Of a stretch of 64,000 nt of DNA, positions 4,647 to 16,041 are shown piece after piece. The notes under the pieces are model-generated. The model was not told the origin of the DNA and did no database searches. It was given only the letters and a program-made list of their open reading frames with translations. The translations under genes and the position numbers were made by a program. The stretch's first letter is position 1, and every line of letters begins with the position of its first letter. The stretch comes from a virus. Where the stretch lies: UHGV virus genome UHGV-0272730; one strand, given 5' to 3'.

Positions 4647-5146
4647 TAATTAAACCTTACTTTTTGTTTAAGGACTGTTGAATGGTTACCAGATTCATCT
4701 ACCACATTTACAATCATATCATATACTTTACCTTTGACAAGTACTTTGTAATCATTTTGTGAAAAAATGTATTCAAGTCTGTCTGTTTCTTTATTAACTG
4801 CCATTGGAGATTGAAATGCAGTGTCGAGGGTAATGAAAGCGGCTTCAATGCTATTAACATTGATACGTTTATTCTCGCAGTTATATAACTTTACACCCAA
4901 AAGGCATGAACTGTCAAATGGAATTTTAACAATTTCACTACAATTTCCTAAAATAAACGGTTTTCCACTCATTGGAGCATCAAGTAACCTGCAAATAGTG
5001 AAAACGTCAGAGGCTCCACCATCACTTACATAACCTGAAAGGCTGACCCTTGAGCCAGCCTCTACAGATAATTTGTCAGTGATGATAAGAACACCTCTAT
5101 ACGAATGCACTCGTGTAGCATTTGAAATAGAGATAACTTCAGCCAT
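4646..5146 (-). CDS. hypothetical head-module protein
   Basis: 166 aa ORF between portal and protease genes. Confidence 0.4.
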   Translation of the reverse strand: MAEVISISNATRVHSYRGVLIITDKLSVEAGSRVSLSGYVSDGGASDVFTICRLLDAPMSGKPFILGNCSEIVKIPFDSSCLLGVKLYNCENKRINVNSIEAAFITLDTAFQSPMAVNKETDRLEYIFSQNDYKVLVKGKVYDMIVNVVDESGNHSTVLKQKVRFN

Positions 5147-6628: not shown

Positions 6629-8245
6629 TCAACGTCTAAGCCCCTCATATGGGTTTCCTCTCACTAAGTCTGTGTGAGCACCCATTGATGGCGGCTTGAA
6701 TAATTTAACTTCGTTAAGACTGTTGAAAGCATCACTGGTAGCATCCACTTGGTCATCTTTAGTTTTACCATCACCACAAAAGCCTTCAAGCTCTTGGAAG
6801 TAAGCTTCATTCCAACTACCTCTCAAGACTTTTACAAGTCCAGCTTCAGAAGCAGCAGAAAACCCCGCAAATCGGGTAACTTTATCTTTATTTGTTGGTT
6901 TAGCTCTTGCACGATAGCCTTTCTCGGCAAGTTTCCTGATGAGGGATGTCGCGTAGGATTTACCAGCAGCGCCTGGGTCTTGAGGGATAAAAATACCAGT
7001 TCGCTTACCGTCACTTTCAGCAGTCAAATTAATTTGTGTTTCGACTCCAGAGGGTCTATCTCTAAATCTTACTACATCAATGATATAATAGCAACCGTCT
7101 TTTTTAGATTTACCCATCTTAACACCTGCTGTCCAGTCTGGATTAGGGTTAATCTCAGATGGTAAAGTTGCTGCTAAGTCCCATGCTCTAACATCGAATA
7201 CATCTTCTGGGAGTGAATCAACAATCTCACACCATTGTCTTTGCCAATAGTTTGAACCTTCTGCACGAGCCTTCCAGTTACCGAAACGAAGTCTTGCAAC
7301 GTTTACAGGGGTGTTGTTTTCCAACTTACCACGGTACTTAGGCTCTAAGAAGTCAAGGATTGGGTTATCATCAATCGTACCAGAGATAAAGGTGTATGTT
7401 TGAGGAATCTCAAGAGGAAACATTTCAAGAATCTTGTCTCTCTCCCAATCAGAAACCATAACACCATCATTCATTACATACCAACGAATACGACCACACT
7501 TTTCAGGGTCTGGGTAACCTTCTTCATCTAAGAAGGGTTCTACCCAATCATAAATAAAGTGGTCTCTATCTGGGTTCATAGAAATCTTCATGTATGAGTC
7601 ACTTTCAGCACCAGAACGTAGACGAGTCTGTAGGTATGAAATCTGTGAAGCAGAGAAGTGTGTACCTTCGTCAAAGTAGATAGCTGAGTATTCAATACCC
7701 TGATGACCTTCAGCGTGCTTTTCAAGTTCTAGGTAGGTAAACTTGATAGTTGCCCCAGAAGGGAATGTGATAGTCATCTTCTGCTCATGAGGAACCCCAC
7801 CAAACTTACCAAATAGTTTCTTTGCAGCAGGCCATAAACCACCTTGTAACTGTGTTGTATTTTGACGGAAATATACAGCATTATAGTTAGGGTCTTCAAT
7901 AAACCTTAAAGAGTCCATTAATAATGCAGCAGTTTTACCAGCACCAGCAGCACCACCATAGAGAACCAAGTCAGCATTAGTATTTAAAAAGACCTCTTGA
8001 GAACCCGGCTGAGGGGCTACATAGTTCTTATCAGTCATCAATTTGAAGATAAGTCTAACTTGGTCTGGTGTGTATCTTAATAAAGTCAGAATTTGAGTTG
8101 GAAGGAATTTAGAGGGGTCTTTACCGTATGATTTGATAATTTCTTTTACTTCATCAGAAAGCCCCAACTCTCCAGCTAGGACTTTCCTAACATCTTCCAC
8201 TCGCTTCTGCTTAATAGCATTTAAGTCCATTAAGCACCTCCGCAA
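6629..8245 (-). CDS. terL: terminase large subunit
   Basis: 538 aa; N-terminal ATPase with Walker A-like VLYGGAAGAGKT and C-terminal nuclease-like half; directly precedes portal. Confidence 0.8.
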   Translation of the reverse strand: MRRCLMDLNAIKQKRVEDVRKVLAGELGLSDEVKEIIKSYGKDPSKFLPTQILTLLRYTPDQVRLIFKLMTDKNYVAPQPGSQEVFLNTNADLVLYGGAAGAGKTAALLMDSLRFIEDPNYNAVYFRQNTTQLQGGLWPAAKKLFGKFGGVPHEQKMTITFPSGATIKFTYLELEKHAEGHQGIEYSAIYFDEGTHFSASQISYLQTRLRSGAESDSYMKISMNPDRDHFIYDWVEPFLDEEGYPDPEKCGRIRWYVMNDGVMVSDWERDKILEMFPLEIPQTYTFISGTIDDNPILDFLEPKYRGKLENNTPVNVARLRFGNWKARAEGSNYWQRQWCEIVDSLPEDVFDVRAWDLAATLPSEINPNPDWTAGVKMGKSKKDGCYYIIDVVRFRDRPSGVETQINLTAESDGKRTGIFIPQDPGAAGKSYATSLIRKLAEKGYRARAKPTNKDKVTRFAGFSAASEAGLVKVLRGSWNEAYFQELEGFCGDGKTKDDQVDATSDAFNSLNEVKLFKPPSMGAHTDLVRGNPYEGLRR

Positions 8246-8251
8246 ATAGAA

Positions 8252-8452
8252 TTATTCAGAGTCTGTAGCAGTCTCTTCTTTCTTAACTTCGAACTTTGCA
8301 TCAACAGCATCAAGAAGTGCATCCATAGATGCTTCTTTAATATCAATACCTGTTGCTACAGATAGTCTGTCTGCAATTGCCATGATAGTATTCTGCATAA
8401 ACTCTAACTTCTTGTTAGCTTCATAAAGTTCTTTATAAACGTTCTCGCTCAT
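8252..8452 (-). CDS. hypothetical small protein upstream of terminase
   Basis: 66 aa ORF ending 7 nt before terL start; too small to assign as small terminase. Confidence 0.35.
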   Translation of the reverse strand: MSENVYKELYEANKKLEFMQNTIMAIADRLSVATGIDIKEASMDALLDAVDAKFEVKKEETATDSE

Positions 8453-8674
8453 TATGTTTTCTCCAAATAATTAATATTGTTTCCCCTTAAAAAAGACGGC
8501 ACAGAGACCGTCAAGGAGAAACCACAATGTACGTCAGAGACATACTGTATAAGCCTTCTTATAAAGTATAACTCTGTAAAAAAGCCCTGTCTAAAAATAC
8601 TCTTCGGTAGCGAAAGGAAGAATACTTATAGCAGGGCATTATTATTATTTTAATTGAGAGAGAGTAAAATAACT

Positions 8675-8750
8675 TGGAGAATCCGAAGGGACTCGAACCC
8701 TTATAAACCTGTTTTGCAGACAGGCACATAGCCATTTCTGTCACGGATTC
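8675..8750 (-). tRNA. tRNA-Cys (anticodon GCA)
   Basis: Cloverleaf parsed on reverse complement: acceptor GAATCCG/CGGATTC, anticodon arm CCTGT-CTGCAAA-ACAGG, T arm AAGGG-TTCGAGT-CCCTT, CCA encoded. Confidence 0.75.
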
Positions 8751-8754
8751 AAAT

Positions 8755-8847
8755 TGGAGGAAGATACCAGACTTGAACTGGTACACCGATTTCTCAGCTA
8801 CTGGCAGTTTAGCAAACTGCTCCCTTACCTTTTAGGGTTAATCTTCC
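8755..8847 (-). tRNA. tRNA-Ser (anticodon GCT), class II with long variable arm
   Basis: Acceptor GGAAGAT/ATCTTCC, anticodon arm GCAGT-TTGCTAA-ACTGC, about 21 nt variable arm, T arm ACCAG-TTCAAGT-CTGGT. Confidence 0.65.
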
Positions 8848-8848
8848 A

Positions 8849-9646
8849 TTATTTCTGTAATGCGTTCTTCATTTCTGGTGTTGCAATAGTGTCAATCACA
8901 CCAGTTTTACAAGCATCATCAAACCAGTCTGGTAAGATACCTGCTAAGAACCCATTGATATTCGTTTTAAGGTACTCTGCAATAAGAGCAGCTTCTTCTT
9001 CAATCATCTGCACAACTTCATCTGCATAAGCTGTAATTTTTGAAATACCTTCATTAATCTTACTAACAGCTTGCTCAGCTAAATCAGAAATAGTATCAAG
9101 ACCTTTGTCAATAGCATCTTGTAAGTCACTTAACACACCATTAACACTATCTAGTGCACTGTTAATCGTATCAATAGCTTTTTGACCATACTCTGTAGCA
9201 ACACCCATAATACCACTAAATGGTGTACAGCCAACTTGTTCACCTACTGCACCCATAACATTAGAGTAACCTTTTGCTACCTGCATACGTGATGAAAACT
9301 CATCAATGGACTTTTGACCATAGTCTGTTAAGGTCTTAGTAGTCGCTGTAGTGCTTGTAAGGCTTGTTGTAAAGCTGTTTAGAAGGACTGTTGTAAGTCC
9401 AGCAGCAACAAGTTTCTCCTTCATTGTAGGGTCTGTTACAGAGCTAATAGAACTTACAAGTGATGTAGAGGCAGCTACGGTTCCACCGAGAACTGCTGCA
9501 CCAGTAATAAGGGGATTGGAAAACCCTCTACCGGTTTTTAAGAGATTAAAAATCTCCTTACCTTGTTCTGTCATCTCTTTCATTAAGCACCTTTGAAATT
9601 GGTAGTCCAGTGGGATTTGAACCCTCTTCTCATGTTTTTCAGACAC
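8849..9646 (-). CDS. hypothetical protein embedded in tRNA array
   Basis: 265 aa ORF exactly filling the gap between two tRNAs; Ser/Thr/Ala-rich N-terminus and helical C-terminus. Confidence 0.45.
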   Translation of the reverse strand: MSEKHEKRVQIPLDYQFQRCLMKEMTEQGKEIFNLLKTGRGFSNPLITGAAVLGGTVAASTSLVSSISSVTDPTMKEKLVAAGLTTVLLNSFTTSLTSTTATTKTLTDYGQKSIDEFSSRMQVAKGYSNVMGAVGEQVGCTPFSGIMGVATEYGQKAIDTINSALDSVNGVLSDLQDAIDKGLDTISDLAEQAVSKINEGISKITAYADEVVQMIEEEAALIAEYLKTNINGFLAGILPDWFDDACKTGVIDTIATPEMKNALQK

Positions 9647-9676
9647 GCGCTTTAACCATATAAGCTACTTGGACTA
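9600..9676 (-). tRNA. tRNA-Phe (anticodon GAA), tentative
   Basis: Acceptor TAGTCCA/TGGACTA, anticodon arm CGTGT-CTGAAAA-ACATG, T loop TTCAAAT. Confidence 0.6.
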
Positions 9677-9681
9677 TAAAT

Positions 9682-9757
9682 TGGGGTGACCTACGGGATT
9701 TGAACCCGTATAGACCATGTTCACAGCATGGGTCATTACCATTTATGATAAGGCCAC
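9682..9757 (-). tRNA. tRNA-His (anticodon GTG)
   Basis: Anticodon arm CCATG-CTGTGAA-CATGG, T arm ACGGG-TTCAAAT-CCCGT, CCA encoded. Confidence 0.65.
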
Positions 9758-9788
9758 ATTTAAGGACTCTCGTAAGAATCCTTAGAAG

Positions 9789-9864
9789 TGGCAGCGGCAT
9801 AAGGATTTGAACCTTAATAGGACAGCTTCAGAGACTGTTGCATTGCCAGTTATGCTATACCGCT
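9789..9864 (-). tRNA. tRNA with anticodon CTG (Gln-type), tentative
   Basis: Acceptor AGCGGTA/TGCCGCT, anticodon arm ACAGT-CTCTGAA-GCTGT, T arm TAAGG-TTCAAAT-CCTTA, CCA encoded. Confidence 0.55.
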
Positions 9865-9869
9865 AAATT

Positions 9870-9948
9870 TGGTACTCCATATCGGATTCGAACCGATACA
9901 TAACACAGATTTTAAGTCTGGCCTCTCTGCCAATTGGAGTAATGGAGC
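9870..9948 (-). tRNA. tRNA with anticodon loop CTTAAAA (anticodon TAA, Leu-type) but short variable arm
   Basis: Acceptor GCTCCAT/ATGGAGT, T arm ATCGG-TTCGAAT-CCGAT; 79 nt, unusual for tRNA-Leu. Confidence 0.5.
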
Positions 9949-9950
9949 AT

Positions 9951-10026
9951 TGGCGGGGGATGTTGGAATTGAACCAACTTCTTCGATTTCAAAGACCGAG
10001 GTTTTAACCTTGTAAACTAATCCCCT
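9951..10026 (-). tRNA. tRNA-Gln (anticodon TTG), tentative
   Basis: Anticodon arm TCGGT-CTTTGAA-ATCGA, T arm GTTGG-TTCAATT-CCAAC, CCA encoded. Confidence 0.55.
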
Positions 10027-10034
10027 TTAAATCT

Positions 10035-10592
10035 TTACTTTCTCAGTGGATGAATAAAGAATGCCAACATAACTCTTTCCCTTGAGAATGCTCTTTCTTC
10101 TGGGACAACACTTTTTAGTTTCCATCCAATATAAATTCTCCAGTAAAACTGTTTACCAAAGACTTTAATTGATGGGATAAAGGCGAATAATCCCCAAGCA
10201 TTACTGTTCCACATTAGGAGGTAACCAGTCTGATTATCTTCAGGGTCAGAACTTACGTTGATATTACCTTTCCACTTAGTAACATCTTTTACATCTCTTC
10301 CTAATACATGGTAAGAGAAGTTATAAGCTTTGTTTCTCCAGAGCCATCCGACTCTTTGCATGTAGACGCCTAGTTTACCAATCCATCTAATATTAGCCCA
10401 TCTTTTAACGTGACCTTCATCACCATCAATTGGGTTGTCATATGTCTCCATCCATCTGAACCCGAAAGGTAAGTGTCCTTTCTTCTCACTGTAGAATGGA
10501 ACTACAAAAGGTGCTAAGATAACTGCTAAGATTGCTGCAAATGGCTCTAACAAAGCTAAGAAAATCCATGAAGCATACTTTAAGTATCTCAT
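10035..10592 (-). CDS. hypothetical membrane protein inside tRNA array
   Basis: 185 aa ORF with strongly hydrophobic N-terminus (WIFLALLEPFAAILAVILAPFVVPF) and W/R-rich remainder. Confidence 0.4.
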   Translation of the reverse strand: MRYLKYASWIFLALLEPFAAILAVILAPFVVPFYSEKKGHLPFGFRWMETYDNPIDGDEGHVKRWANIRWIGKLGVYMQRVGWLWRNKAYNFSYHVLGRDVKDVTKWKGNINVSSDPEDNQTGYLLMWNSNAWGLFAFIPSIKVFGKQFYWRIYIGWKLKSVVPEERAFSRERVMLAFFIHPLRK

Positions 10593-10831
10593 TGTCTAAT
10601 CCTCGTAAGGAGGTAAATGTTATTATTCGTTTCTAAACCTTCTGGTAAAACTGTCTCAAAAATAACACTCTTCAGATGTCTACCACCAAAACAATCACGT
10701 ATAAATCTTTCTACTCTAGCGGGGTCACATAAGTATCCCACTTTTAAGAAAATGTGGTGTTCAACACCAATGACCCTGACAAACTCAATACTCTCACAGT
10801 TTTCATGTTCAACTACTGTTAATGTTTGCAT
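10589..10831 (-). CDS. hypothetical protein
   Basis: 80 aa ORF overlapping downstream gene start by 4 nt. Confidence 0.35.
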   Translation of the reverse strand: MQTLTVVEHENCESIEFVRVIGVEHHIFLKVGYLCDPARVERFIRDCFGGRHLKSVIFETVLPEGLETNNNIYLLTRIRQ

Positions 10832-10848
10832 AGTATCACCTTTTTATC

Positions 10849-10924
10849 TGGCGCAGGATAAGGGATTCGAACCCCTATTAACAGCTTCGTAGACTGTTGC
10901 TCTTTCCATTTGAACTAATCCTGC
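10849..10924 (-). tRNA. tRNA-Arg (anticodon ACG)
   Basis: Acceptor GCAGGAT/ATCCTGC, D arm GTTC/GAGC, anticodon arm ACAGT-CTACGAA-GCTGT, T arm AGGGG-TTCGAAT-CCCTT, CCA encoded. Confidence 0.65.
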
Positions 10925-10929
10925 AAAAT

Positions 10930-11007
10930 TGGTGTTCCAAGACGGATTCGAACCGTCACTAATACAAGGTTTGAGCTTGCATCCTCTGCCAATTGGGATA
11001 CTGGAAC
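10930..11007 (-). tRNA. tRNA with anticodon loop CTCAAAC (anticodon CAA, Leu-type) but short variable arm
   Basis: Acceptor GTTCCAG/TTGGAAC, T arm GACGG-TTCGAAT-CCGTC; 78 nt. Confidence 0.5.
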
Positions 11008-11011
11008 ATGA

Positions 11012-11083
11012 TACTCACTAAAGGACTTGAACCTTTTTCTTCATCTTGTAAGGGTGATGTTTTACCATATAAACTAAGCGAGT
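11012..11083 (-). tRNA. tRNA-Val (anticodon TAC), tentative; CCA not encoded
   Basis: Acceptor pairs 7/7 with one G-U, anticodon arm TCACC-CTTACAA-GATGA, T arm AAAGG-TTCAAGT-CCTTT. Confidence 0.55.
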
Positions 11084-11179
11084 ATGAAAGAGGTCTGGAG
11101 TTGTGCCGCTAACTCAACTCCGTGGAATTTGTTACGGTCTTCAGTTGACTCAAAGCGGTCTTTCACTTGACCTCTGAAT

Positions 11180-11257
11180 TGGTGCTCCCACAAGGACTCG
11201 AACCCGCATCTCCATCCTTACAAGGGATGTGTAATAGCCAATTATACGAAAGCAGCA
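11180..11257 (-). tRNA. tRNA-like element with perfect Thr-type anticodon arm (TGT) but degenerate T and acceptor stems
   Basis: Anticodon arm CATCC-CTTGTAA-GGATG perfect; T stem GCGGG/CCTTG pairs poorly; 5' acceptor strand not complementary; abuts HNH gene stop at 11258. Confidence 0.3.
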
Positions 11258-11671
11258 TTAAACTTTTATGATACCAGCATGTACTTTTCTGTGACAGTTA
11301 GCGCACAAGACAATGCACTTTCTGATTTCATCTTTTAATCTTTTTGTGGAGTATGAATAAAGTGATGCAGGATTCAAATCTTTCTGGGAAGGGTCTGTAT
11401 GGTGTAAATCCAATGCAACTGGTTCTTTCTCACCACATATATGACATTTGCATAAAGCTTTGTACCTTCTAGCTAGAGTCTTGTTATACTCTCTCTTGAA
11501 GTTACGAGTGCTTTTAATAGCCTCTTTCCTTTTATCATTTGCTTGATAACTCTTTGCATCACGAAGTCTTGCACAGTCTTTGCATTGACTTTGAAGACCA
11601 TCTTTCTTGTTCTTATTCTTATGGAATAAGCTTTCATCTTTTGGTATTCTGCAAGTACTGCATATTTTCAT
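11258..11671 (-). CDS. HNH homing endonuclease
   Basis: 137 aa with Cys clusters and HNH core CHICGE...LDLHH...CANCH. Confidence 0.75.
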   Translation of the reverse strand: MKICSTCRIPKDESLFHKNKNKKDGLQSQCKDCARLRDAKSYQANDKRKEAIKSTRNFKREYNKTLARRYKALCKCHICGEKEPVALDLHHTDPSQKDLNPASLYSYSTKRLKDEIRKCIVLCANCHRKVHAGIIKV

Positions 11672-11685
11672 ATCACACCTTAATT

Positions 11686-11760
11686 TGGAGCATCCAGAGG
11701 GAATCGAACCCTCAACCTCAGTTTGGAAGACTGTAATTTTCCCGTTTAAACTATGGATGC
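11686..11760 (-). tRNA. tRNA-Gly (anticodon TCC)
   Basis: Acceptor TGGATGC/GCATCCA perfect, anticodon loop CTTCCAA, T arm GAGGG-TTCGATT-CCCTC, CCA encoded. Confidence 0.65.
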
Positions 11761-11766
11761 ACTAAT

Positions 11767-11842
11767 TGGTGGAGAAGCAGGGAATTGAACCCTGTACTTA
11801 AGTTTGCAAAACTTATGTTTTAACCATGTAAACTACATCCCC
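11767..11842 (-). tRNA. tRNA-Ala (anticodon TGC)
   Basis: Anticodon arm TAAGT-TTTGCAA-ACTTA perfect; G3-U70 wobble in acceptor stem (Ala identity element); T arm CAGGG-TTCAATT-CCCTG. Confidence 0.65.
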
Positions 11843-11848
11843 AATGTC

Positions 11849-11924
11849 TGGTACAGGTGGAGGGAATTGAACCCATCGTCTTACTGATTAAGAGTCAGCC
11901 GCATAACCATTTTGCTACACCTGC
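11849..11924 (-). tRNA. tRNA-Lys (anticodon CTT), tentative
   Basis: Anticodon arm GCTGA-CTCTTAA-TCAGT; close paralogue of tRNA at 13264-13339. Confidence 0.55.
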
Positions 11925-11931
11925 ATTAATT

Positions 11932-12009
11932 TGGTAGGAGACAAGGGATTCGAACCCTCAAACATCTCGTTCTAAGCGAGATAGGTTTACCAATTACCGT
12001 CAATCTCCC
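11932..12009 (-). tRNA. tRNA with anticodon loop CTTAGAA (anticodon TAG, Leu-type) but short variable arm
   Basis: Anticodon stem TCTCG/CGAGA perfect, T arm GAGGG-TTCGAAT-CCCTT; 78 nt. Confidence 0.5.
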
Positions 12010-12264
12010 ATTAAATCTTTTTAGAGAACTTCTAAGAACCTAAGCAACAAGGCTCCACAACAAGCTGTAATAACCTTAGAAGCCCTCTAAAAAGACCTAA
12101 ATAGGTCTTTGCATAGTCTTGTTTAATCCGGTGACTAGAACCTTTGGAGAGCTTGATATTATCTCTTCTCCGTGACACCTACTAGGTGCTTTGACAGTGT
12201 ACGACAATACACGAGGGATAAACCGACAATGCGAACAAGCATGGACGGAGTAAATCTTATTAGG
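12010..12264 (-). ncRNA. structured non-coding spacer in tRNA array (candidate stable RNA)
   Basis: 255 nt without convincing ORF; about 19 bp imperfect inverted repeat (12017-12036 vs 12074-12093) plus small hairpin AGACCTAAATAGGTCT. Confidence 0.3.
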
Positions 12265-12354
12265 CGGTAAGTAAAGGAGTCGAACCCTCACCGTATCTCT
12301 ACAGTGGCAACTGTTTTCAAGACAGTTTGGCTACCATTAGCCGCTACCTACCCC
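12265..12354 (-). tRNA. tRNA-Ser (anticodon TGA), class II
   Basis: Acceptor GGTAGGT/ACTTACC, anticodon arm ACTGT-CTTGAAA-ACAGT perfect, long variable arm, T loop TTCGACT. Confidence 0.6.
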
Positions 12355-12365
12355 TAATAAGACTT

Positions 12366-12448
12366 TGGCATGGGACGGAGGAGTTGAACCCCTTTGAAAC
12401 GGTTTTGGAGGCCGTTGCTCATGCCTTAGAGTCTTAACATCGTCCCAT
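12366..12448 (-). tRNA. tRNA-Trp (anticodon CCA), tentative, with enlarged D region
   Basis: Acceptor ATGGGAC/GTCCCAT perfect, anticodon arm ACGGC-CTCCAAA-ACCGT; 83 nt. Confidence 0.5.
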
Positions 12449-12460
12449 ATTATAATTCGA

Positions 12461-12489
12461 AGCTTACCCTGTTATCTCAACACTGTCAA
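12461..12489 (-). promoter_or_regulatory. candidate sigma70-like promoter upstream of tRNA at 12366-12448
   Basis: Minus strand TTGACA (12484-12489), 17 bp spacer, TAAGCT (12461-12466). Confidence 0.3.
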
Positions 12490-12590
12490 GCTTCTTCTCA
12501 GATTATTTACATGTTCTGGAAAACATGAGATACAGACCACCTCCTTACACGGAGACCCGATAAGGTCGTCTAAGCAATCTGCTAACTATT

Positions 12591-12667
12591 TGGTACACCC
12601 TACAGGATTCGAACCTGTAACTAACGATTTAGAAGACCGTTGCTCTATCCAATTGAACTAAGGGTGC
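12591..12667 (-). tRNA. tRNA-Arg (anticodon TCT)
   Basis: Acceptor GCACCCT/AGGGTGT, D arm GTTC/GAGC, anticodon arm ACGGT-CTTCTAA-ATCGT, T arm ACAGG-TTCGAAT-CCTGT, CCA encoded. Confidence 0.65.
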
Positions 12668-12987
12668 ATTAACATTTTAAAGGGTACTTATTGCATTTAA
12701 GCCAAGCCCCATAAGGGATACCCTTTAGAATGTTGCCCACCTTATTAATCATACCGTGGGCGAGTACGCCAAATTCTTTGATGAGGGATTGGAAGACCTC
12801 ACTGGTGTTTAGCCTATCAAGCTACTGCCAGAAAAACATTGTCGTTTGCATTTATTTTAAATTTTCAAAATAGACGCTACGCAACGAAAACTATTCAGAA
12901 TATGTACAACAAATTTCCCCACATTGTGTTACGTCTAACGCTCATGTATTGGTGTTTGAATTATACATATTATGAAGTGTTTTAGTT

Positions 12988-13016
12988 ACTATAAAGTAGT
13001 CACATCTCAATGTCAA
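12988..13016 (-). promoter_or_regulatory. candidate sigma70-like promoter within 360 nt tRNA spacer
   Basis: Minus strand TTGACA (13011-13016), 17 bp spacer, TATAGT (12988-12993). Confidence 0.4.
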
Positions 13017-13031
13017 CAACTTTATTGAAAT

Positions 13032-13107
13032 TGGTGCTGGTAGGTGGAATCGAACCACCGATGTTCCCTTATCAGGGGAGTGTTATAACCTTCTTAACTA
13101 TACCAGC
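13032..13107 (-). tRNA. tRNA-Ile (anticodon GAT)
   Basis: Acceptor GCTGGTA/TACCAGC, D arm GTTA/TAAC, anticodon loop CTGATAA, T arm GGTGG-TTCGATT-CCACC, CCA encoded. Confidence 0.65.
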
Positions 13108-13108
13108 T

Positions 13109-13185
13109 TGGAGGTTCAGATGGGAATCGAACCCACATTCATAGGGCTTATGAAACCCCTGCATTACCTTATCTGCGACTGAACC
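13109..13185 (-). tRNA. tRNA with anticodon CAT (Met, fMet or Ile2)
   Basis: Acceptor GGTTCAG/CTGAACC, anticodon arm GGGGT-TTCATAA-GCCCT, T loop TTCGATT, CCA encoded. Confidence 0.55.
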
Positions 13186-13263
13186 AGAATAAGTACCCTA
13201 GTTAGAGAAACTGTTGAGTGGGTGTTTCCAGCCGCGCAGGTGTTTCTCAGTTAAGGGTGAATT

Positions 13264-13339
13264 TGGTAGAAGTGGAGGGATTCGAACCCATCGCCTGTCA
13301 GATTAAAAGTCTGCCGCATCACCATTCTGCTACACTTCC
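13264..13339 (-). tRNA. tRNA-Lys (anticodon TTT)
   Basis: Acceptor GGAAGTG/CACTTCT, anticodon loop CTTTTAA, T loop TTCGAAT, CCA encoded. Confidence 0.6.
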
Positions 13340-13539
13340 ATTAAATTATCTTTGTAGATAAGCTACCCAGACTTGCTTAAGGTCTGTAGCGATGTGCCTT
13401 TTTGGGTTTAAATCTAGAATTTACCCTTTCACCCTTTGTGGTCGCATACTCACAGGTAAGCTTAATAACTTATCTACAAAGATAATTACCAGACCGTTGT
13501 TTATCATCTTAAGTGCTACCATTACACCAACTCGACATC

Positions 13540-13566
13540 TGCCGAGTGAAGGAATCGAACCTTCGC
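13540..13566 (-). other. tRNA-like 3' fragment (T arm plus acceptor strand only)
   Basis: GAAGG-TTCGATT-CCTTC T arm followed by ACTCGGC on the minus strand, but no complementary 5' acceptor strand or anticodon arm within about 100 nt. Confidence 0.3.
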
Positions 13567-13795
13567 CTTTTCTTTACCGAGAAATAGATTGTTTAAGTTT
13601 TGCTGTAAACGGTCTTCTGTAAATTTGTTGAGCCAGACCAAGTTTTAAATTTTTCAAAATTAAATTGGCTTGAAATTTTCATACGTTCTTGCTGTATTTG
13701 GTCTTCTGCTCCTTTAAAGGATACTCGTAAGAACCCTTTAAGGGAGGGGCTAAAATAGCCCTCTCAAACATCATTTTGAAATACTTATTATAATT

Positions 13796-13873
13796 TGGCG
13801 GTTACGAAGGGATTTGAACCCTCATCATCTCCCGTGACAGGGGAGTATTTTAACCAGATTAAACTACATAACC
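13796..13873 (-). tRNA. tRNA-Asp (anticodon GTC)
   Basis: Anticodon arm CTCCC-CTGTCAC-GGGAG perfect, T arm GAGGG-TTCAAAT-CCCTT, CCA encoded. Confidence 0.65.
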
Positions 13874-13879
13874 TTTATT

Positions 13880-13967
13880 TGGTGTGCCGTGTAGGAGTCG
13901 AACCTACCGAGTCTCAATGACAAGGGATTTACAGTCCCCACCGCTACCATCTACGGGATAACGACAC
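13880..13967 (-). tRNA. tRNA-Tyr (anticodon GTA), class II
   Basis: Acceptor GTGTCGT/ACGGCAC (one G-U), 3 bp D stem CCG/CGG, anticodon arm GGGGA-CTGTAAA-TCCCT, about 15 nt variable arm, T arm GTAGG-TTCGACT-CCTAC. Confidence 0.6.
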
Positions 13968-13976
13968 ATTTAAATT

Positions 13977-14053
13977 TGGCGGTTAGTCAGGGATTCGAAC
14001 CCTGTGCCATTCGCTTAACAGGCGACCGCACATACCTTATGTGCTTCCTAACC
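13977..14053 (-). tRNA. tRNA-Asn (anticodon GTT)
   Basis: D arm GCAC/GTGC, anticodon loop CTGTTAA, T arm CAGGG-TTCGAAT-CCCTG, CCA encoded. Confidence 0.6.
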
Positions 14054-14130
14054 TTAATACATTGCCAGACCGTGTTTTTTCTTTTATCCGCAAAAAGTAT
14101 TTTGTTGCTGAATACGGTCTTCTGCAAAAT

Positions 14131-14207
14131 TGGAGGCGGGTGCAGGAGTCGAACCTGCCGATACCATGCTAATGAGACATGTGAGACGCCCTTTCTCTAT
14201 ACCCGCA
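14131..14207 (-). tRNA. tRNA with anticodon CAT (Met-type; 1-72 mismatch hints at initiator)
   Basis: Anticodon arm CATGT-CTCATTA-GCATG, T arm GCAGG-TTCGACT-CCTGC, CCA encoded; first acceptor pair appears unpaired. Confidence 0.5.
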
Positions 14208-14298
14208 ATTCTTAATGACCAGACCAAATCTCTTCTTTGTCCGATTTACCTTCAGATGAATAAGATTAAGTTTGCTGTAATTGGTCTTCTGTCAAAAC

Positions 14299-14376
14299 TG
14301 GCGTTCCAGAAGGGATTTGAACCCTCAGATATCCACTTTGAAAGAGTGGTGACTTTACCATTTTGTCTACTGGAAC
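14299..14376 (-). tRNA. tRNA-Glu (anticodon TTC)
   Basis: Acceptor GTTCCAG/CTGGAAC perfect, anticodon arm CCACT-CTTTCAA-AGTGG perfect, CCA encoded. Confidence 0.65.
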
Positions 14377-14383
14377 ATTAATT

Positions 14384-14460
14384 TGGTCTCTGTTGGAGGA
14401 CTTGAACCTCCGGCCTTACCGCCCCAAACGGAACGCTCTACCAAGCTGAGCTAAACAGAG
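14384..14460 (-). tRNA. tRNA-Pro (anticodon TGG)
   Basis: Acceptor CTCTGTT/AACAGAG perfect, D arm GCTC/GAGC, anticodon loop TTTGGGG, T arm GGAGG-TTCAAGT-CCTCC, CCA encoded. Confidence 0.65.
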
Positions 14461-14486
14461 ATAAACTTTTCAAACTCTATGTAACC

Positions 14487-14516
14487 ACTTTAACATTATT
14501 TTTTAGTGGTTGTCAA
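14487..14516 (-). promoter_or_regulatory. candidate promoter at head of tRNA array
   Basis: Minus strand TTGACA (14511-14516), 18 bp spacer, TGTTAAAGT extended -10-like (14487-14495), about 25 nt upstream of first tRNA 5' end. Confidence 0.35.
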
Positions 14517-14582
14517 GAACTTTTTTAAAATATTTTTCAGTATCTTAGAAAAGCTCTCATTTCGTTTCTATGTAGAACATAT

Positions 14583-14622
14583 TAAAGGGTATTAAACACA
14601 TTGTCAATACCCTTTTTAAAAC
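14583..14622. terminator. hairpin with flanking T/A tracts (possible bidirectional terminator)
   Basis: GGGTATTAAACACATTGTCAATACCC followed by TTTTTTAAAA on plus; lies just downstream of minus gene ending at 14626. Confidence 0.4.
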
Positions 14623-14625
14623 TTT

Positions 14626-16041
14626 TTACCAGATGTAACGGTCAATCATTACTGCTTTGAGCATTACGCTGGTTGGGTCAAACTTCTCACCACCAAGCAG
14701 AGCTTTTAAAGTGGCTGGAGAGAACCCTGATACCATTGCTACACCGTTATCCTTAACAGATACTTCGCAAGTACCACTACGGTTTGCTAAGTACCAGAAT
14801 ACCAGTTGTGGCATTTCGTATCCAGCTTTTTTGTACTTACTACGAATTGCTTCAAAGTTTGTACGACCATTTGCACCGTCAACCTGATTGAACTCCATAT
14901 CAGAGAAGATGATAAGCTTACTTGGCATATCTTTCTGAGTCAAGTTGTTTCTCTTACCTGTCTCAAGAATGCGGTCAAAAGCTGCTTGTAAGTTAGTTGA
15001 ACCGTATTCAACATGACGCATTACCTGACGATGACGGTTTCGTAAATCACCACTCAGTTCAATGAAGTGAGGGTTTGTTGAATAAACCATCAACTCATTC
15101 TTAAAGCAACCTGTATTACGTTCTGCTACATACAATGCAAGTGAAACACCAATATCAAGAGCAGTAATTGAACCAAAATTCACCCAAGACATTGAACTTG
15201 AAACATCAGACATACATAGAATGTTTTCACCCTCTGCCATCCAGTTTGGTAGTGCTTTCCACTGCTCATTAGCAACATCTGCATTACCATACTTAACAGA
15301 TTTAATCACATCGTATGGGTAAACAGCACCAGCATTAATCTTAGTCTTACCCTTTGATAAGGACTCGATGTAAGCTTTGTAGCGCTCTCCATCTTTACGG
15401 TTAAACAGTTTTTGGTAACGTGCAGCAGCAAGTGAAGGAATCTTGCTGTAATCAATCTTACCAAACTCATTAGCAGAGATTTTTTGCTCAACTGTATCAG
15501 ATAGTGCAGACAACAGTGTGCGGTACTCTTTCTCACTCAAGTTGGCAAACTTGCAGAAACGTTTTACAAACTGTTTGTGGCGTGGTTTTACTCGTGGCAA
15601 CCACTTAGCTGCTAAACCTGCTGTTGCAGGGTCTAGTAATGCTGCTTCTAAATGTTTGAAGGCATCTGTCTCGAAACGAGTACCTACGAAGATTTTGAAG
15701 TCATCAAAACGACCAAGTTCTGCAATCTTATCCATAATGCGAAGAACCTGTGTAGGTTCTAAAACTTTATCTTCAATCGCTTGAAGCAAAACAGTTCTGA
15801 AGGCTTTACGCTCACCCATACCTTCTCGTACATCTCGCATATGCAGTAAAATACGAACTGCAACATCAACATCCTCACGCAAAGCTTTGTAGAACAAGTC
15901 TGGTAAGATTTCTACATTGCTACGGCTTGAACCAGCAGCTTTGTAAAAATCTACAAGAGCAGACATTGATGAAGTATGGTTTACAGCACCATTTTCAGTT
16001 CGACCTGCATGAAGGTGCGCATGTTTAAATAACTCGCTCAT
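14626..16041 (-). CDS. vWA-domain protein (MIDAS motif), possibly Ro60/TROVE-like architecture
   Basis: 471 aa; DVSSSMS matches the D-x-S-x-S MIDAS motif of vWA domains; helical N-terminal 250 aa; sits immediately upstream of the tRNA array. Confidence 0.5.
   Translation of the reverse strand: MSELFKHAHLHAGRTENGAVNHTSSMSALVDFYKAAGSSRSNVEILPDLFYKALREDVDVAVRILLHMRDVREGMGERKAFRTVLLQAIEDKVLEPTQVLRIMDKIAELGRFDDFKIFVGTRFETDAFKHLEAALLDPATAGLAAKWLPRVKPRHKQFVKRFCKFANLSEKEYRTLLSALSDTVEQKISANEFGKIDYSKIPSLAAARYQKLFNRKDGERYKAYIESLSKGKTKINAGAVYPYDVIKSVKYGNADVANEQWKALPNWMAEGENILCMSDVSSSMSWVNFGSITALDIGVSLALYVAERNTGCFKNELMVYSTNPHFIELSGDLRNRHRQVMRHVEYGSTNLQAAFDRILETGKRNNLTQKDMPSKLIIFSDMEFNQVDGANGRTNFEAIRSKYKKAGYEMPQLVFWYLANRSGTCEVSVKDNGVAMVSGFSPATLKALLGGEKFDPTSVMLKAVMIDRYIW

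What the first reader, a model, noticed from the sequence alone, without database searches (positions are those of the whole stretch)
8675..14460. Large tRNA array (about 27 genes, near-complete isotype set) interrupted by protein genes and an HNH endonuclease
I parsed tRNAs for Cys, Ser (two), Phe, His, Gln, Arg (two), Val, Gly, Ala, Lys (two), Trp, Ile, Met-type (two), Asp, Tyr, Asn, Glu and Pro, plus the three Leu-type and one degenerate Thr-type. All are on the minus strand and most encode CCA. Embedded in the array are a 265 aa ORF, a 185 aa membrane protein, an 80 aa ORF and an HNH endonuclease whose stop abuts the degenerate Thr-like tRNA (11180-11257), suggesting endonuclease insertion damaged or remodelled that tRNA.
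Basis: seen in the sequence. Interest (0 to 1): 0.45.

Follow-up and report, generated by a model that had tools for sequence, protein, structure and literature searches.

The report
Phage tRNA array hiding Y-like RNAs
This is the well-known tRNA gene cluster of a Felix O1-type phage, but four of its spacers encode small structured RNAs, one of them a tRNA mimic, that look like the partner RNAs of the Ro60-like protein encoded just upstream, a pairing that recurs across very different phages.

Summary
ARAGORN finds 26 minus-strand tRNA genes at 8675-14460, covering 19 isotypes. A conserved non-canonical Trp-like gene lies at 12448-12366. The ORFs of 265, 185 and 80 aa and the HNH ORF are all present. 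The window is a Felixounavirus (97.6% identity to phage Ro111lw), so the array itself has been known since 2010.

The Thr tRNA is degenerate: 28.8 bits against 51.5 and 58.4 for intact alleles. The HNH insertion is not the direct cause, because three relatives with the same HNH keep an intact Thr. The window copy is a unique chimera of two alleles, joined in the T loop.

The new part is in the spacers. Four of them (E0-E3, 14294-13486) carry one module: a 7-bp covarying stem, NN(A/U)CAGCAA, a loop, the 3' strand, then G. E3 encloses a permuted tRNA-like domain, as YrlA does. The adjacent 471-aa DUF2828/DUF7788 protein models as Ro60. The same module sits beside homologous genes, on the same strand, in 11 of 12 other phage lineages and in 48 of 75 metagenomic loci.

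The RNAs are most likely Y-RNA-like partners of a phage Ro60-like protein. Expression and binding are untested, and I found no published description.

The parts
14626..16041 (-). Ro60-like protein gene (471 aa; Pfam DUF2828 + DUF7788; PHROG 850 'RNA-binding protein'), directly upstream of the array
   Evidence: Pfam and PHROGs. The AF2 model has pLDDT 90.2. The top 11 Foldseek PDB hits are all full-length Ro60/Rsr/phage Ro60, with TM 0.45-0.67. MIDAS residues D279, S281, S283, T349 and D381 are invariant in 44 homologs.
14384..14460 (-). tRNA-Pro(tgg)
14299..14376 (-). tRNA-Glu(ttc)
14216..14294 (-). E0: short Y-like RNA. Outer stem UGAC/GUCA, internal loop AGA/G, inner stem AGACCAA/UUGGUCU, then UU-ACAGCAA. 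It fills the Glu-Met spacer.
14131..14207 (-). tRNA-Met-type(cat)
14062..14127 (-). E1: short Y-like RNA. Outer stem UUGC/GCAA, inner stem AGACCGU/ACGGUCU, core UCAGCAA (ACAGCAA in many relatives). It fills the Met-Asn spacer.
13977..14053 (-). tRNA-Asn(gtt)
13880..13967 (-). tRNA-Tyr(gta)
13796..13873 (-). tRNA-Asp(gtc)
13630..13711 (-). E2: short Y-like RNA. Outer stem GAGC/GCUC, inner stem AGACCAA/UUGGUCU, then AU-ACAGCAA.
13486..13622 (-). E3: long Y-like RNA with a permuted tRNA-like domain. It has the same basal module (UUAC/GUAA, AGACCGU/ACGGUCU, UU-ACAGCAA). The module encloses a V-like hairpin, a T arm (GAAGG-UUCGAUU-CCUUC), an acceptor-like hairpin and a D arm (GGUGU-AAUGGUA-GCACU).
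   Evidence: Fold z = -2.06. The acceptor-like hairpin covaries in relatives, CUCG/CGAG against CACG/CGUG. The T arm matches the Rfam tRNA model locally. Model R2, built from other lineages, gives a full-length match of 27.9 bits.
13344..13482 (-). S5: conserved ~135-nt structured spacer RNA. A 19-bp closing stem encloses an inner hairpin CAGAC-CUUAAGCAA-GUCUG followed by G, which resembles the module.
   Evidence: Fold z = -4.0. Compensatory changes against L021-L024.
13264..13339 (-). tRNA-Lys(ttt)
13109..13185 (-). tRNA-Met-type(cat)
13032..13107 (-). tRNA-Ile(gat)
12591..12667 (-). tRNA-Arg(tct)
12366..12448 (-). Non-canonical tRNA-Trp-like gene: A1-U72, G73, CCA end, anticodon loop CUCCAAA, enlarged D region
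   Evidence: Not called by ARAGORN; Rfam tRNA-Sec 23 bits. Conserved, with compensatory changes in the anticodon and D stems. wV8 and L011 carry a canonical tRNA-Trp at the same site.
12263..12352 (-). tRNA-Ser(tga), no encoded CCA
11932..12009 (-). tRNA-Leu(tag)
11849..11924 (-). tRNA-Lys(ctt)
11767..11842 (-). tRNA-Ala(tgc)
11686..11760 (-). tRNA-Gly(tcc)
11258..11671 (-). Free-standing HNH endonuclease gene (137 aa) inserted in the Gly-Thr spacer
   Evidence: PHROG 2255, E = 4.7e-41; Pfam HNH is weak. It is present in 4 of the 26 loci in which the script located tRNA-Thr. The HNH-Thr junction is found in 15 of 270 phage records.
11180..11256 (-). Chimeric, degenerate tRNA-Thr(tgt): allele A from the 5' end to the T loop, allele B for the last ~13 nt, junction near 11196-11193
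11085..11179 (-). Structured Thr-Val spacer (closing stem CAGAGGUC/GACCUCU; contains GAAGACCGUAACAAA, a possibly decayed module)
   Evidence: Fold z = -3.24; conserved in L019
11010..11084 (-). tRNA-Val(tac), no encoded CCA
10930..11007 (-). tRNA-Leu(caa)
10849..10924 (-). tRNA-Arg(acg)
10589..10831 (-). 80-aa ORF (PHROG 14202, unknown function)
10035..10592 (-). 185-aa ORF (DUF7338; hydrophobic N terminus)
9951..10026 (-). tRNA-Gln(ttg)
9870..9948 (-). tRNA-Leu(taa)
9789..9864 (-). tRNA-Gln(ctg)
9682..9757 (-). tRNA-His(gtg)
9600..9675 (-). tRNA-Phe(gaa)
8849..9646 (-). 265-aa ORF (DUF7217)
8755..8847 (-). tRNA-Ser(gct)
8675..8750 (-). tRNA-Cys(gca)
14487..14607 (-). Two sigma-70-like promoter matches (TTGACA-17-TAATAT and TTGACA-18-TAAAGT) between the Ro60-like gene and tRNA-Pro. 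A third (TTGACA-17-TATAGT) lies at 13016-12988.
   Evidence: These are consensus matches only, and promoter-like sites are not enriched over shuffles.

Best explanation
The region is the tRNA gene array of a Felix O1-like myovirus (Felixounavirus). It holds 26 canonical tRNA genes and one conserved non-canonical Trp-like gene. It is a mosaic locus in which small ORFs and a free-standing HNH endonuclease gene come and go between relatives.

The Thr tRNA next to the HNH gene is a recombinant of two alleles. The junction lies in the T loop and breaks the acceptor and T stems, so this copy is probably non-functional. The most economical origin is the end of a gene-conversion tract formed when the HNH cassette, linked to allele A, entered a genome carrying allele B. 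That step is inferred.

The array is also the RNA half of a Ro60-like ribonucleoprotein system. The gene directly upstream encodes a protein with the Ro60 fold: a helical-repeat ring plus a vWA domain with a complete MIDAS motif. Four spacers among the first tRNAs encode small RNAs (E0-E3) that share one module. The module is a short variable outer stem, an asymmetric internal loop, a 7-bp stem of variable sequence, two bases, the near-invariant (A/U)CAGCAA, a loop of 30-110 nt, the 3' strand, and an invariant G. E3 carries inside its loop a V hairpin, a T arm, a closed acceptor-like hairpin and a D arm. This is the same permuted tRNA-like layout as bacterial YrlA Y RNAs.

Proposed mechanism, all of it inferred. 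The array is transcribed as a precursor. RNase P and the tRNA 3'-end processing enzymes cut out the tRNAs and so also release the spacer RNAs. The Ro60-like protein binds the stem-plus-CAGCAA module, as Ro60 binds the conserved helix of Y RNAs. The RNP then acts on RNA metabolism or counter-defence during infection, for example by recruiting a host exoribonuclease or by presenting a tRNA decoy.
For: Identity of the locus: 97.6% identity to Escherichia phage Ro111lw and 95.7% to Felix O1, with the same gene order. The Felix O1 tRNAs and HNH genes were published in 2010 (PMC3185647).

tRNAs.

Thr chimera.

Ro60 fold: the model has pLDDT 90.2. The top 11 PDB hits are all Ro60, Rsr or Thermus phage Ro60 over the full length, and the next hits are vWA domains only. 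An independent report gives the Bas63 (Felixounavirus) ortholog gp130 high structural similarity to Ro60 and places it directly upstream of the tRNA genes (PMC11482910).

Module in the window: AGAAGACC-N5-CAGCAA occurs 4 times, all on the minus strand inside the array, against 0.53 expected. The paired bases covary between the four copies (AA/UU against GU/AC; outer stems GAC/GUC, UGC/GCA, UAC/GUA, GAGC/GCUC) and among relatives.

Module elsewhere: the strict module occurs 27 times on the gene's strand and 0 times on the other strand in 95.8 kb from 12 other lineages, in 11 of the 12, against 0.17 expected. These include Klebsiella, Mycobacterium, Listeria, Campylobacter, Aeromonas, Sinorhizobium, Bacillus, Staphylococcus and Enterococcus phages and IMG/VR contigs. 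24 of the 27 lie within 1 kb of the gene.

Unselected sample: in 75 metagenomic loci with 38-47% identical proteins, 48 have at least one module. 72 modules are on the gene's strand and 3 on the opposite strand. The base after the 3' strand is G in 66 of 72, although the scan did not require it. Positions pile up within 500 nt of the gene's ends.

Conservation across elements: in 32 aligned elements all 7 stem pairs change on both sides, while CAGCAA and the 3' G are invariant.

tRNA-like loops: long members in Klebsiella phage KP13-26 and mycobacteriophage Krypton555 give sub-threshold Rfam YrlA hits of 40.1 and 38.3 bits. 19 of 41 long-loop members contain a T-loop motif, several in the order T arm, hairpin, D arm.
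Against: There is no expression or binding evidence. Nothing here shows that the spacer RNAs accumulate or that the protein binds them.

Pfam TROVE does not match the protein, and neither phmmer nor a profile search finds Ro60 in the PDB by sequence. The link to Ro60 therefore rests on the fold alone.

E0-E3 lack the GNCGAAN0-1G motif that defines YrlA, and E3 gives no Rfam YrlA hit even at E <= 10.

The 99% pairing is partly circular, because pairing was a selection criterion.

The relaxed single-module pattern (core [AT]CAGCAA, 3' G not required) is not rare by chance: 1.2 are expected per 64 kb on both strands. The argument rests on clustering, strand and position.

27 of the 75 metagenomic loci have no module under my definition.

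Model R2 scores E3 no higher than junctions between tandem tRNAs.

Bas63 gp130 alone, expressed from a plasmid or from T7, counters the ppl defence, so that activity does not need the phage's own RNAs.

The homing origin of the Thr chimera is inferred. Ordinary recombination between co-infecting phages, or an assembly chimera of a mixed population, would give the same sequence.
Confidence: 0.7

Rival explanations
1. This is only an ordinary phage tRNA array. The repeated spacer motif serves precursor processing or transcription (for example RNase E/III/P guide structures or promoters) and has nothing to do with the neighbouring protein.
For: The elements lie exactly between tRNAs, where processing signals would be expected. 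E0 begins with TTGACA, which resembles a -35 hexamer. The relaxed single-module pattern is expected about once per 64 kb by chance.
Against: The module follows the Ro60-like gene, not tRNAs. It lies next to that gene in Krypton555, Staphylococcus phage CF9 and Aeromonas phage LAh_9, which have no tRNA gene within about 2 kb of the modules. It is absent from the other roughly 20 spacers of this same array. Only E0 has TTGACA. The two halves covary as a helix.
Confidence: 0.1
2. The modules are cis-acting operators on the mRNA of the Ro60-like gene (autoregulatory binding sites or attenuators), not free-standing small RNAs.
For: They are always on the gene's strand and mostly within 500 nt of it. 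In several lineages (List-36, F352, L031, LAh_9, VRE9_4) they lie in what would be the 5' leader.
Against: In Felix-like phages, KP13-26, Krypton555 and CF9 they lie downstream of the stop codon. In the window they are separated from the gene by promoter-like sites and by tRNAs that must be excised. There are 2-4 copies per genome. Long members carry elaborate tRNA-like domains that an operator would not need.
Confidence: 0.1
3. The chimeric tRNA-Thr has nothing to do with the HNH gene. It is a by-product of general recombination between co-infecting Felix-like phages, or an assembly artefact from a mixed population.
For: The whole array is mosaic: alleles A and B of Thr, two alternative Trp cassettes, and variable ORFs. 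Sequence downstream of the junction does not discriminate between donors. The chimera occurs in one genome only.
Against: The junction lies about 65 nt from the HNH cassette. All four HNH-bearing loci carry allele A on the HNH side. This linkage is what a co-conversion tract predicts.
Confidence: 0.35

Closest known systems
Felix O1 / Felixounavirus tRNA gene cluster with free-standing HNH endonuclease genes (Whichard et al. 2010, PMC3185647)
   Same: The locus, gene order and tRNA set are the same, and the same HNH gene sits between tRNA-Gly and tRNA-Thr in Felix O1 itself.
   Different: The window has a chimeric tRNA-Thr found in no other record. It carries one HNH gene where Felix O1 has three in the array.
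Bacterial Ro60 (Rsr) with YrlA/YrlB Y RNAs (Chen et al. 2014, PMC4201824; Rfam RF02553)
   Same: A Ro60-fold protein gene has 2-4 small RNA genes on the same strand within about 1 kb. One long RNA has V, T, acceptor-like and D stem-loops in the same order as YrlA, closed by a basal stem with a conserved motif on its 5' strand. The other RNAs are short, like YrlB.
   Different: The protein has no detectable TROVE sequence match. The conserved RNA motif is NN(A/U)CAGCAA plus a 3' G, not GNCGAAN0-1G. E3 gives no Rfam YrlA hit. The RNAs are interleaved with tRNA genes.
Thermus phage phiLo Ro60 with Yrl1/Yrl2 (PMC12135203)
   Same: It is a phage-encoded Ro60-fold protein and the best structural match (9kop/9l5y). 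Two Y-like RNAs are encoded next to its gene, and it was shown to bind them and to assemble with host PNPase.
   Different: phiLo Ro60 is a recognisable TROVE protein whose RNAs carry the CGAA motif. No tRNA array is involved.
Bas63 gp130 (PhageMaP preprint, PMC11482910)
   Same: By inference it is the orthologous gene in another Felixounavirus. It was reported as Ro60-like by structure, located directly upstream of the tRNA genes, and able to counter the ppl defence. The authors guessed that some annotated tRNAs might be Y RNAs.
   Different: No RNA was identified there. Here the candidates are unannotated spacer RNAs, not annotated tRNAs. gp130 worked without them in T7.
Stable non-tRNA small RNAs in the phage T4 tRNA cluster, and HNH endonucleases in the phage T5 tRNA region (both recalled from my own knowledge, not checked here)
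   Same: Both are precedents: small stable RNAs co-processed from a phage tRNA precursor, and HNH endonuclease genes lodged among phage tRNA genes.
   Different: As far as I know, no Ro60-like partner protein or shared sequence module has been described for either.

Membership tests
Felixounavirus tRNA array | High nucleotide identity and synteny with the Felix O1 tRNA region (terminase, tRNA clusters, then the DUF2828 gene) | tested here: met
   95.7% identity to Felix O1 and 97.6% to Ro111lw, with the same order of tRNAs and ORFs.
Canonical tRNA (the Thr copy at 11180-11256) | Intact cloverleaf that scores above the Rfam tRNA gathering score | tested here: not met
   28.8 bits against a gathering score of 29. 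Intact alleles score 51.5 and 58.4 bits. There are four mismatches in the acceptor and T stems.
Free-standing HNH homing endonuclease | HNH nuclease motif | tested here: met
   PHROG 2255 'HNH endonuclease', E = 4.7e-41. Pfam HNH is below its cut-off, at 17.4 bits against 21.4.
Free-standing HNH homing endonuclease | Sporadic presence or absence at one precise intergenic site among close relatives | tested here: met
   The gene fills the Gly-Thr spacer in 4 of the 26 loci in which tRNA-Thr was located; the others have a 6-7 nt gap. The junction is found in 15 of 270 phage records.
Free-standing HNH homing endonuclease | Cleaves the endonuclease-less allele and spreads with co-conversion of flanking sequence | not testable with these tools
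   The only evidence is indirect: the allele-A/allele-B junction lies about 65 nt from the cassette.
Ro60 / TROVE proteins | Ring of helical (HEAT-like) repeats followed by a vWA domain | tested here: met
   The AF2 model has pLDDT 90.2. The top 11 Foldseek hits are full-length Ro60 structures, TM 0.45-0.67, probability 1.00.
Ro60 / TROVE proteins | Sequence match to the Pfam TROVE domain or to solved Ro60 sequences | tested here: not met
   Pfam returns only DUF2828 and DUF7788. phmmer and hmmsearch against the PDB find no Ro60.
Ro60 / TROVE proteins | MIDAS motif (DxSxS...T...D) in the vWA domain | tested here: met
   D279, S281, S283, T349 and D381 are invariant in 44 homologs.
Ro60 / TROVE proteins | Binds Y RNA on the outer surface and misfolded RNA ends in the central hole | not testable with these tools
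   No binding data are available.
YrlA-type Y RNA (Rfam RF02553) | Encoded within 4 kb of the Ro60 gene on the same strand | tested here: met
   E0-E3 lie 330-1140 nt downstream on the same strand.
YrlA-type Y RNA (Rfam RF02553) | tRNA-like domain: V, T, acceptor-like and D stem-loops in that order, closed by a basal stem | tested here: met
   This holds for E3. The T arm matches the Rfam tRNA model locally.
YrlA-type Y RNA (Rfam RF02553) | GNCGAAN0-1G motif near the 5' end | tested here: not met
   The equivalent position carries NN(A/U)CAGCAA in all elements.
YrlA-type Y RNA (Rfam RF02553) | Score at or above the Rfam gathering score (69 bits) | tested here: not met
   E3 gives no hit at E <= 10. 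Related long elements in KP13-26 and Krypton555 reach only 40.1 and 38.3 bits.

The most novel reading that the evidence does not exclude
DUF2828/DUF7788 proteins are a large, sequence-divergent branch of Ro60. More than 2,000 homologs were found, in 710 of 50,697 phage records. Their cognate RNAs would be a previously unrecognised class of phage Y RNAs, defined by a 7-bp stem, NN(A/U)CAGCAA and a 3' G. Many of these RNAs carry tRNA-like domains, either permuted or in normal order. In Felix O1-like phages four of them are interleaved with tRNA genes, so the host tRNA-processing enzymes would release them. The resulting RNP would act in RNA-level counter-defence or tRNA quality control. The permuted tRNA-like domain may have arisen from the junction of two tandem tRNA genes.
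Probability: 0.5. Interest if true: 0.7.

Novelty: new variant of a known kind. Interest (0 to 1): 0.55.

Why it matters
The tRNA array and its HNH genes are textbook Felix O1 biology.

The possible addition is the set of candidate partner RNAs for a very widespread phage protein family that databases call only 'RNA-binding protein' or DUF2828. One ortholog has been shown to defeat a bacterial defence system by an unknown mechanism. With a defined sequence-plus-structure module and exact coordinates, binding can be tested directly by EMSA, RIP-seq or deletion of E0-E3.

The finding would widen the Ro60/Y RNA paradigm to many phages of both Gram-negative and Gram-positive hosts. It would also explain spacers that are currently unannotated, or annotated as opposite-strand ORFs.

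The chimeric tRNA-Thr is a small but clean example of how traffic of mobile endonuclease cassettes can break a neighbouring tRNA gene.

Tried and rejected
1. A single-sequence AF2 model of the 471-aa protein had pLDDT 44.7 and was unusable. I repeated it with a 44-sequence alignment.

2. Covariance model R1 was built from loop-trimmed 'mini' elements of other lineages. In the window it found only random hairpins (best E = 0.39), because local ends skipped the CAGCAA motif. It is not informative, and a proper model needs a curated alignment with the real loops.

3. MAFFT alignments of whole elements put the 3' strands out of register by one column. I therefore used fixed-register extracts for pair counting. 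Pairing was a selection criterion for those extracts.

4. Model R2, built from long tRNA-like elements of other lineages, finds E3 over its full length at 27.9 bits. Junctions between adjacent tRNAs score the same over the T/D half of the model, so this is only moderate support.

5. Rfam gives nothing for E0-E3. The MIR473, Plastid-ycf2, snoR30 and tmRNA_permuted hits are sub-threshold and were treated as chance matches or tRNA echoes.

6. I considered a sigma-70 promoter reading of the motif and rejected it, because only E0 has TTGACA. Promoter-like sites are not enriched in the region.

7. The supplementary tables of Chen et al. 2014, which list the 22 phages with YrlA, are not held. I therefore could not check whether any DUF2828-type phage was among them.

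Full report
**What the window is.** The region 8000-15000 is 97.6% identical to Escherichia phage vB_EcoM-Ro111lw and 95.7% identical to Salmonella phage Felix O1. 349 phage records match it, and 193 of them cover at least 80% of the query. The annotated relatives show the same layout: large terminase, then tRNA clusters interrupted by small ORFs and HNH genes, then a 471-aa 'RNA-binding protein'. The Felix O1 genome paper of 2010 already described 22 tRNAs in clusters and six HNH endonuclease genes (PMC3185647). A 2025 paper on the related phage Sf14 counts 26 tRNAs for 19 amino acids (PMC12482277). The array itself is therefore already known.

**Check of the observation.**
- ARAGORN finds 26 tRNA genes, all on the minus strand, between 8675 and 14460. 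They cover 19 isotypes.
- Rfam puts 22 of them above the tRNA gathering score. Ser(tga) and Tyr match tRNA-Sec below threshold, and Thr scores 28.8 bits against a cut-off of 29.
- 24 of the 26 encode CCA.
The 265-aa ORF is DUF7217, the 185-aa ORF is DUF7338, the 80-aa ORF is PHROG 14202, and the 137-aa ORF is an HNH endonuclease (PHROG 2255, E = 4.7e-41).
An 83-nt element at 12448-12366 nevertheless has A1-U72, G73, CCA and the anticodon loop CUCCAAA, with an enlarged D region.
- That element is conserved in at least 21 relatives. It shows compensatory changes in the anticodon stem (AACGG/CCGUU against GUAAG/CUUAC) and in the D stem (CUC/GAG against CAC/GUG). Phage wV8 and L011 carry a canonical tRNA-Trp at the same site.

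**The Thr tRNA and the HNH gene.**
- Relatives carry one of two tRNA-Thr alleles. Type A (GCUGCUU...GAGCAGCACCA) and type B (GCUCCUA...UGGGAGCACCA) each have perfect acceptor and T stems. They score 51.5 and 58.4 bits.
- The window copy is type A through the T loop and type B for the last ~13 nt. This gives mismatches G4.G69, U7.U66, G49.G65 and C50.U64 and a score of 28.8 bits.
- The chimera is unique among 30 loci. No identical copy exists in 50,697 phage records; the best match is 96.5%.
- The HNH ORF fills the Gly-Thr spacer in only 4 of the 26 loci in which the script located tRNA-Thr. The others have a 6-7 nt gap. In the other three HNH-bearing genomes the Thr is an intact type A.
- So the insertion itself did not damage the tRNA. 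Because the HNH is linked to allele A and the junction lies about 65 nt away, the junction may mark the end of a co-conversion tract. This is an inference. General recombination or an assembly chimera cannot be excluded.

**Non-tRNA RNAs in the spacers.**
- Reading the minus strand shows a repeated motif. AGAAGACC-N5-CAGCAA occurs four times in the 64-kb window, all inside the array, against 0.53 expected. Each copy has a matching NNGGUCUGG further downstream.
- The four elements are E0 (14294-14216), E1 (14127-14062), E2 (13711-13630) and E3 (13622-13486).
- Each fold has a short outer stem, an AGA/G internal loop and a 7-bp inner stem. NN(A/U)CAGCAA follows the inner stem at the start of the loop.
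- Paired positions differ between the copies in a compensatory way, and they vary among 29 relatives while the motif stays fixed.
- E3 encloses four stem-loops in this order: a V-like hairpin, a T arm (GAAGG-UUCGAUU-CCUUC), a closed 7-bp acceptor-like hairpin and a D arm with a GG loop. The acceptor-like hairpin covaries in relatives (CUCG/CGAG against CACG/CGUG).
- That is the V-T-AS-D order described for bacterial YrlA Y RNAs (PMC4201824).
- A fifth structured spacer, S5 (13482-13344), has a 19-bp closing stem and an inner hairpin with loop CUUAAGCAA followed by G. It shows compensatory changes in more distant relatives.

**The neighbouring protein.**
- The 471-aa product of 14626-16041 matches only Pfam DUF2828 and DUF7788. 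It has no sequence match to solved structures.
- With a 44-sequence alignment the AlphaFold2 model reaches pLDDT 90.2.
- Its 11 best Foldseek matches in the PDB are all full-length Ro60: Xenopus and human Ro60, Deinococcus Rsr and Thermus phage phiLo Ro60. TM scores are 0.45-0.67. The next matches are isolated vWA domains.
- The MIDAS residues are invariant.
- The family is large. More than 2,253 homologs were found, and 710 phage records match, including mycobacteriophage genes annotated 'Ro-like RNA binding protein'.
- A 2024 preprint found that the Bas63 (Felixounavirus) protein gp130 resembles Ro60 structurally, lies just upstream of the tRNAs and counters the ppl defence. It guessed that some annotated tRNAs might be Y RNAs but identified none (PMC11482910).

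**Association across phages.**
- I fetched loci around distant homologs (29-47% identity). The same module lies next to the gene, on its strand, usually in 2-4 copies, in Klebsiella phage KP13-26, mycobacteriophage Krypton555, Listeria phage List-36, Campylobacter phage F352, Aeromonas LAh_9, Sinorhizobium phiN3, Bacillus FADO, Staphylococcus CF9, Enterococcus VRE9_4 and three IMG/VR contigs.
- The strict definition is 7 bp ending 2 nt before ACAGCAA, at most one G-U pair, a loop of 20-150 nt, and G after the 3' strand.
- Under it, 12 lineages (95.8 kb) hold 27 modules on the gene's strand, in 11 of the 12 (Vibrio phage ValKK3 has only a 6-bp variant). 24 of the 27 are within 1 kb of the gene, none is on the other strand, and 0.17 are expected.
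- In an unselected set of 75 metagenomic viral loci, 48 have at least one module. 72 are on the gene's strand and 3 on the opposite strand. The next base is G in 66 of 72 although the scan did not require it. Positions concentrate within 500 nt of the gene's ends.
- In 32 aligned elements, CAGCAA and the 3' G are invariant while all seven stem pairs change on both sides. Pairing was a selection criterion there, so the percentage paired is not independent evidence.
- Long members in KP13-26 and Krypton555 have T arm, hairpin and D arm domains. They give sub-threshold Rfam YrlA hits of 40.1 and 38.3 bits against a gathering score of 69.
- 19 of 41 long-loop members carry a T-loop motif. A few enclose a tRNA-like domain in normal order.
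- Several of these phages have no tRNA gene near the modules (Krypton555, CF9, LAh_9). The module therefore tracks the protein gene rather than tRNAs.

**Interpretation.** The best reading is that E0-E3, and perhaps S5, are Y-RNA-like partners of a Ro60-like phage protein. In this phage they are embedded in the tRNA precursor, so RNase P and tRNA 3'-end processing would release them. Expression, processing, binding and function are all inferred.

Points against:
- The protein has no TROVE sequence match.
- The YrlA motif GNCGAAN0-1G is absent, and E3 gives no Rfam YrlA hit.
- 27 of the 75 metagenomic loci lack the module as I defined it.
- gp130 alone protects T7 from ppl.

The system therefore works like Ro60/Y RNA, but it is not a member of the Rfam YrlA family or of Pfam TROVE as those are defined. 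I found no description of these RNAs in the searchable literature. Prior art outside that library cannot be excluded.

**Verdict.** The finding as written describes a known feature and is largely correct. Its mechanistic guess about the Thr tRNA is right in outcome and wrong in detail.

Noticed in passing
window 12448-12366 (-); L003 11394-11464; L011 11388-11458: The Trp position holds one of two unrelated cassettes at the same site. Most relatives have a non-canonical 83-nt Trp-like gene with an enlarged D region. wV8 and L011 have a canonical 71-nt tRNA-Trp.
   Followed up: partly
window 13392-13622 (+); L045 930-1187 (wV8 gp048): GenBank and RefSeq annotate a hypothetical protein on the opposite strand across E3 and S5. 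The conserved RNA structures on the minus strand suggest this CDS is spurious.
   Followed up: partly
window 9628-9709, 11793-11929, 14349-14411 (-): Model R2 (T arm, hairpin, D arm) also matches junctions between adjacent tRNA genes. The 3' half of one tRNA plus the 5' half of the next gives the same order as the permuted tRNA-like domain. This hints that such domains may have arisen from tandem tRNA junctions.
   Followed up: no
L082 around 2230-2330; L119 around 5015-5110: In some metagenomic phages the CAGCAA module encloses a tRNA-like domain in normal order (D arm, anticodon-like arm, T arm), as in Deinococcus Yrn1, rather than the permuted YrlA order.
   Followed up: no
L037 (Listeria phage List-36) 1426-1977 and 5810-7021: There is a near-threshold ROOL RNA match (91.5 bits against a gathering score of 99.1) about 1 kb upstream of the Ro60-like gene. 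An RtcB-type 'tRNA splicing ligase' gene lies downstream. This recalls the Salmonella rsr-yrlBA-rtcBA RNA repair operon.
   Followed up: no
window 12020-12115 (-): A long imperfect hairpin lies just upstream of tRNA-Leu(tag). Rfam reports it as a sub-threshold MIR473 match (29.9 bits here, 32.7 in L001 and L005). It is conserved in relatives and its function is unknown.
   Followed up: no
window 12817-13090 (-); L005 10854-11038; L001 6323-6507: Weak permuted-tmRNA matches (24-30 bits against a gathering score of 47) recur over tRNA-Ile plus about 200 nt downstream. They are probably an echo of the tRNA, but they recur in three genomes.
   Followed up: no
window 11085-11179 (-): The Thr-Val spacer folds strongly (z = -3.2). 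It contains GAAGACCGUAACAAAUUCCACGG, which looks like a decayed copy of the E-type module.
   Followed up: no
window 12263-12352 and 11010-11084 (-): tRNA-Ser(tga) and tRNA-Val(tac) are the only two of the 26 tRNAs without an encoded CCA end.
   Followed up: no
window 13880-13967 (-): tRNA-Tyr is 82-87% identical to tRNA-Tyr genes of T4-like, T5-like and Campylobacter phages. This suggests exchange of tRNA genes between unrelated phage groups, or strong convergence.
   Followed up: no
L040 (Aeromonas phage LAh_9) 2366-2500: The annotated start of the 'RNA-binding protein' CDS (2366) overlaps two predicted modules (2342-2396 and 2406-2458). The homology starts at 2501, so the annotated start is probably too far upstream.
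   Followed up: no
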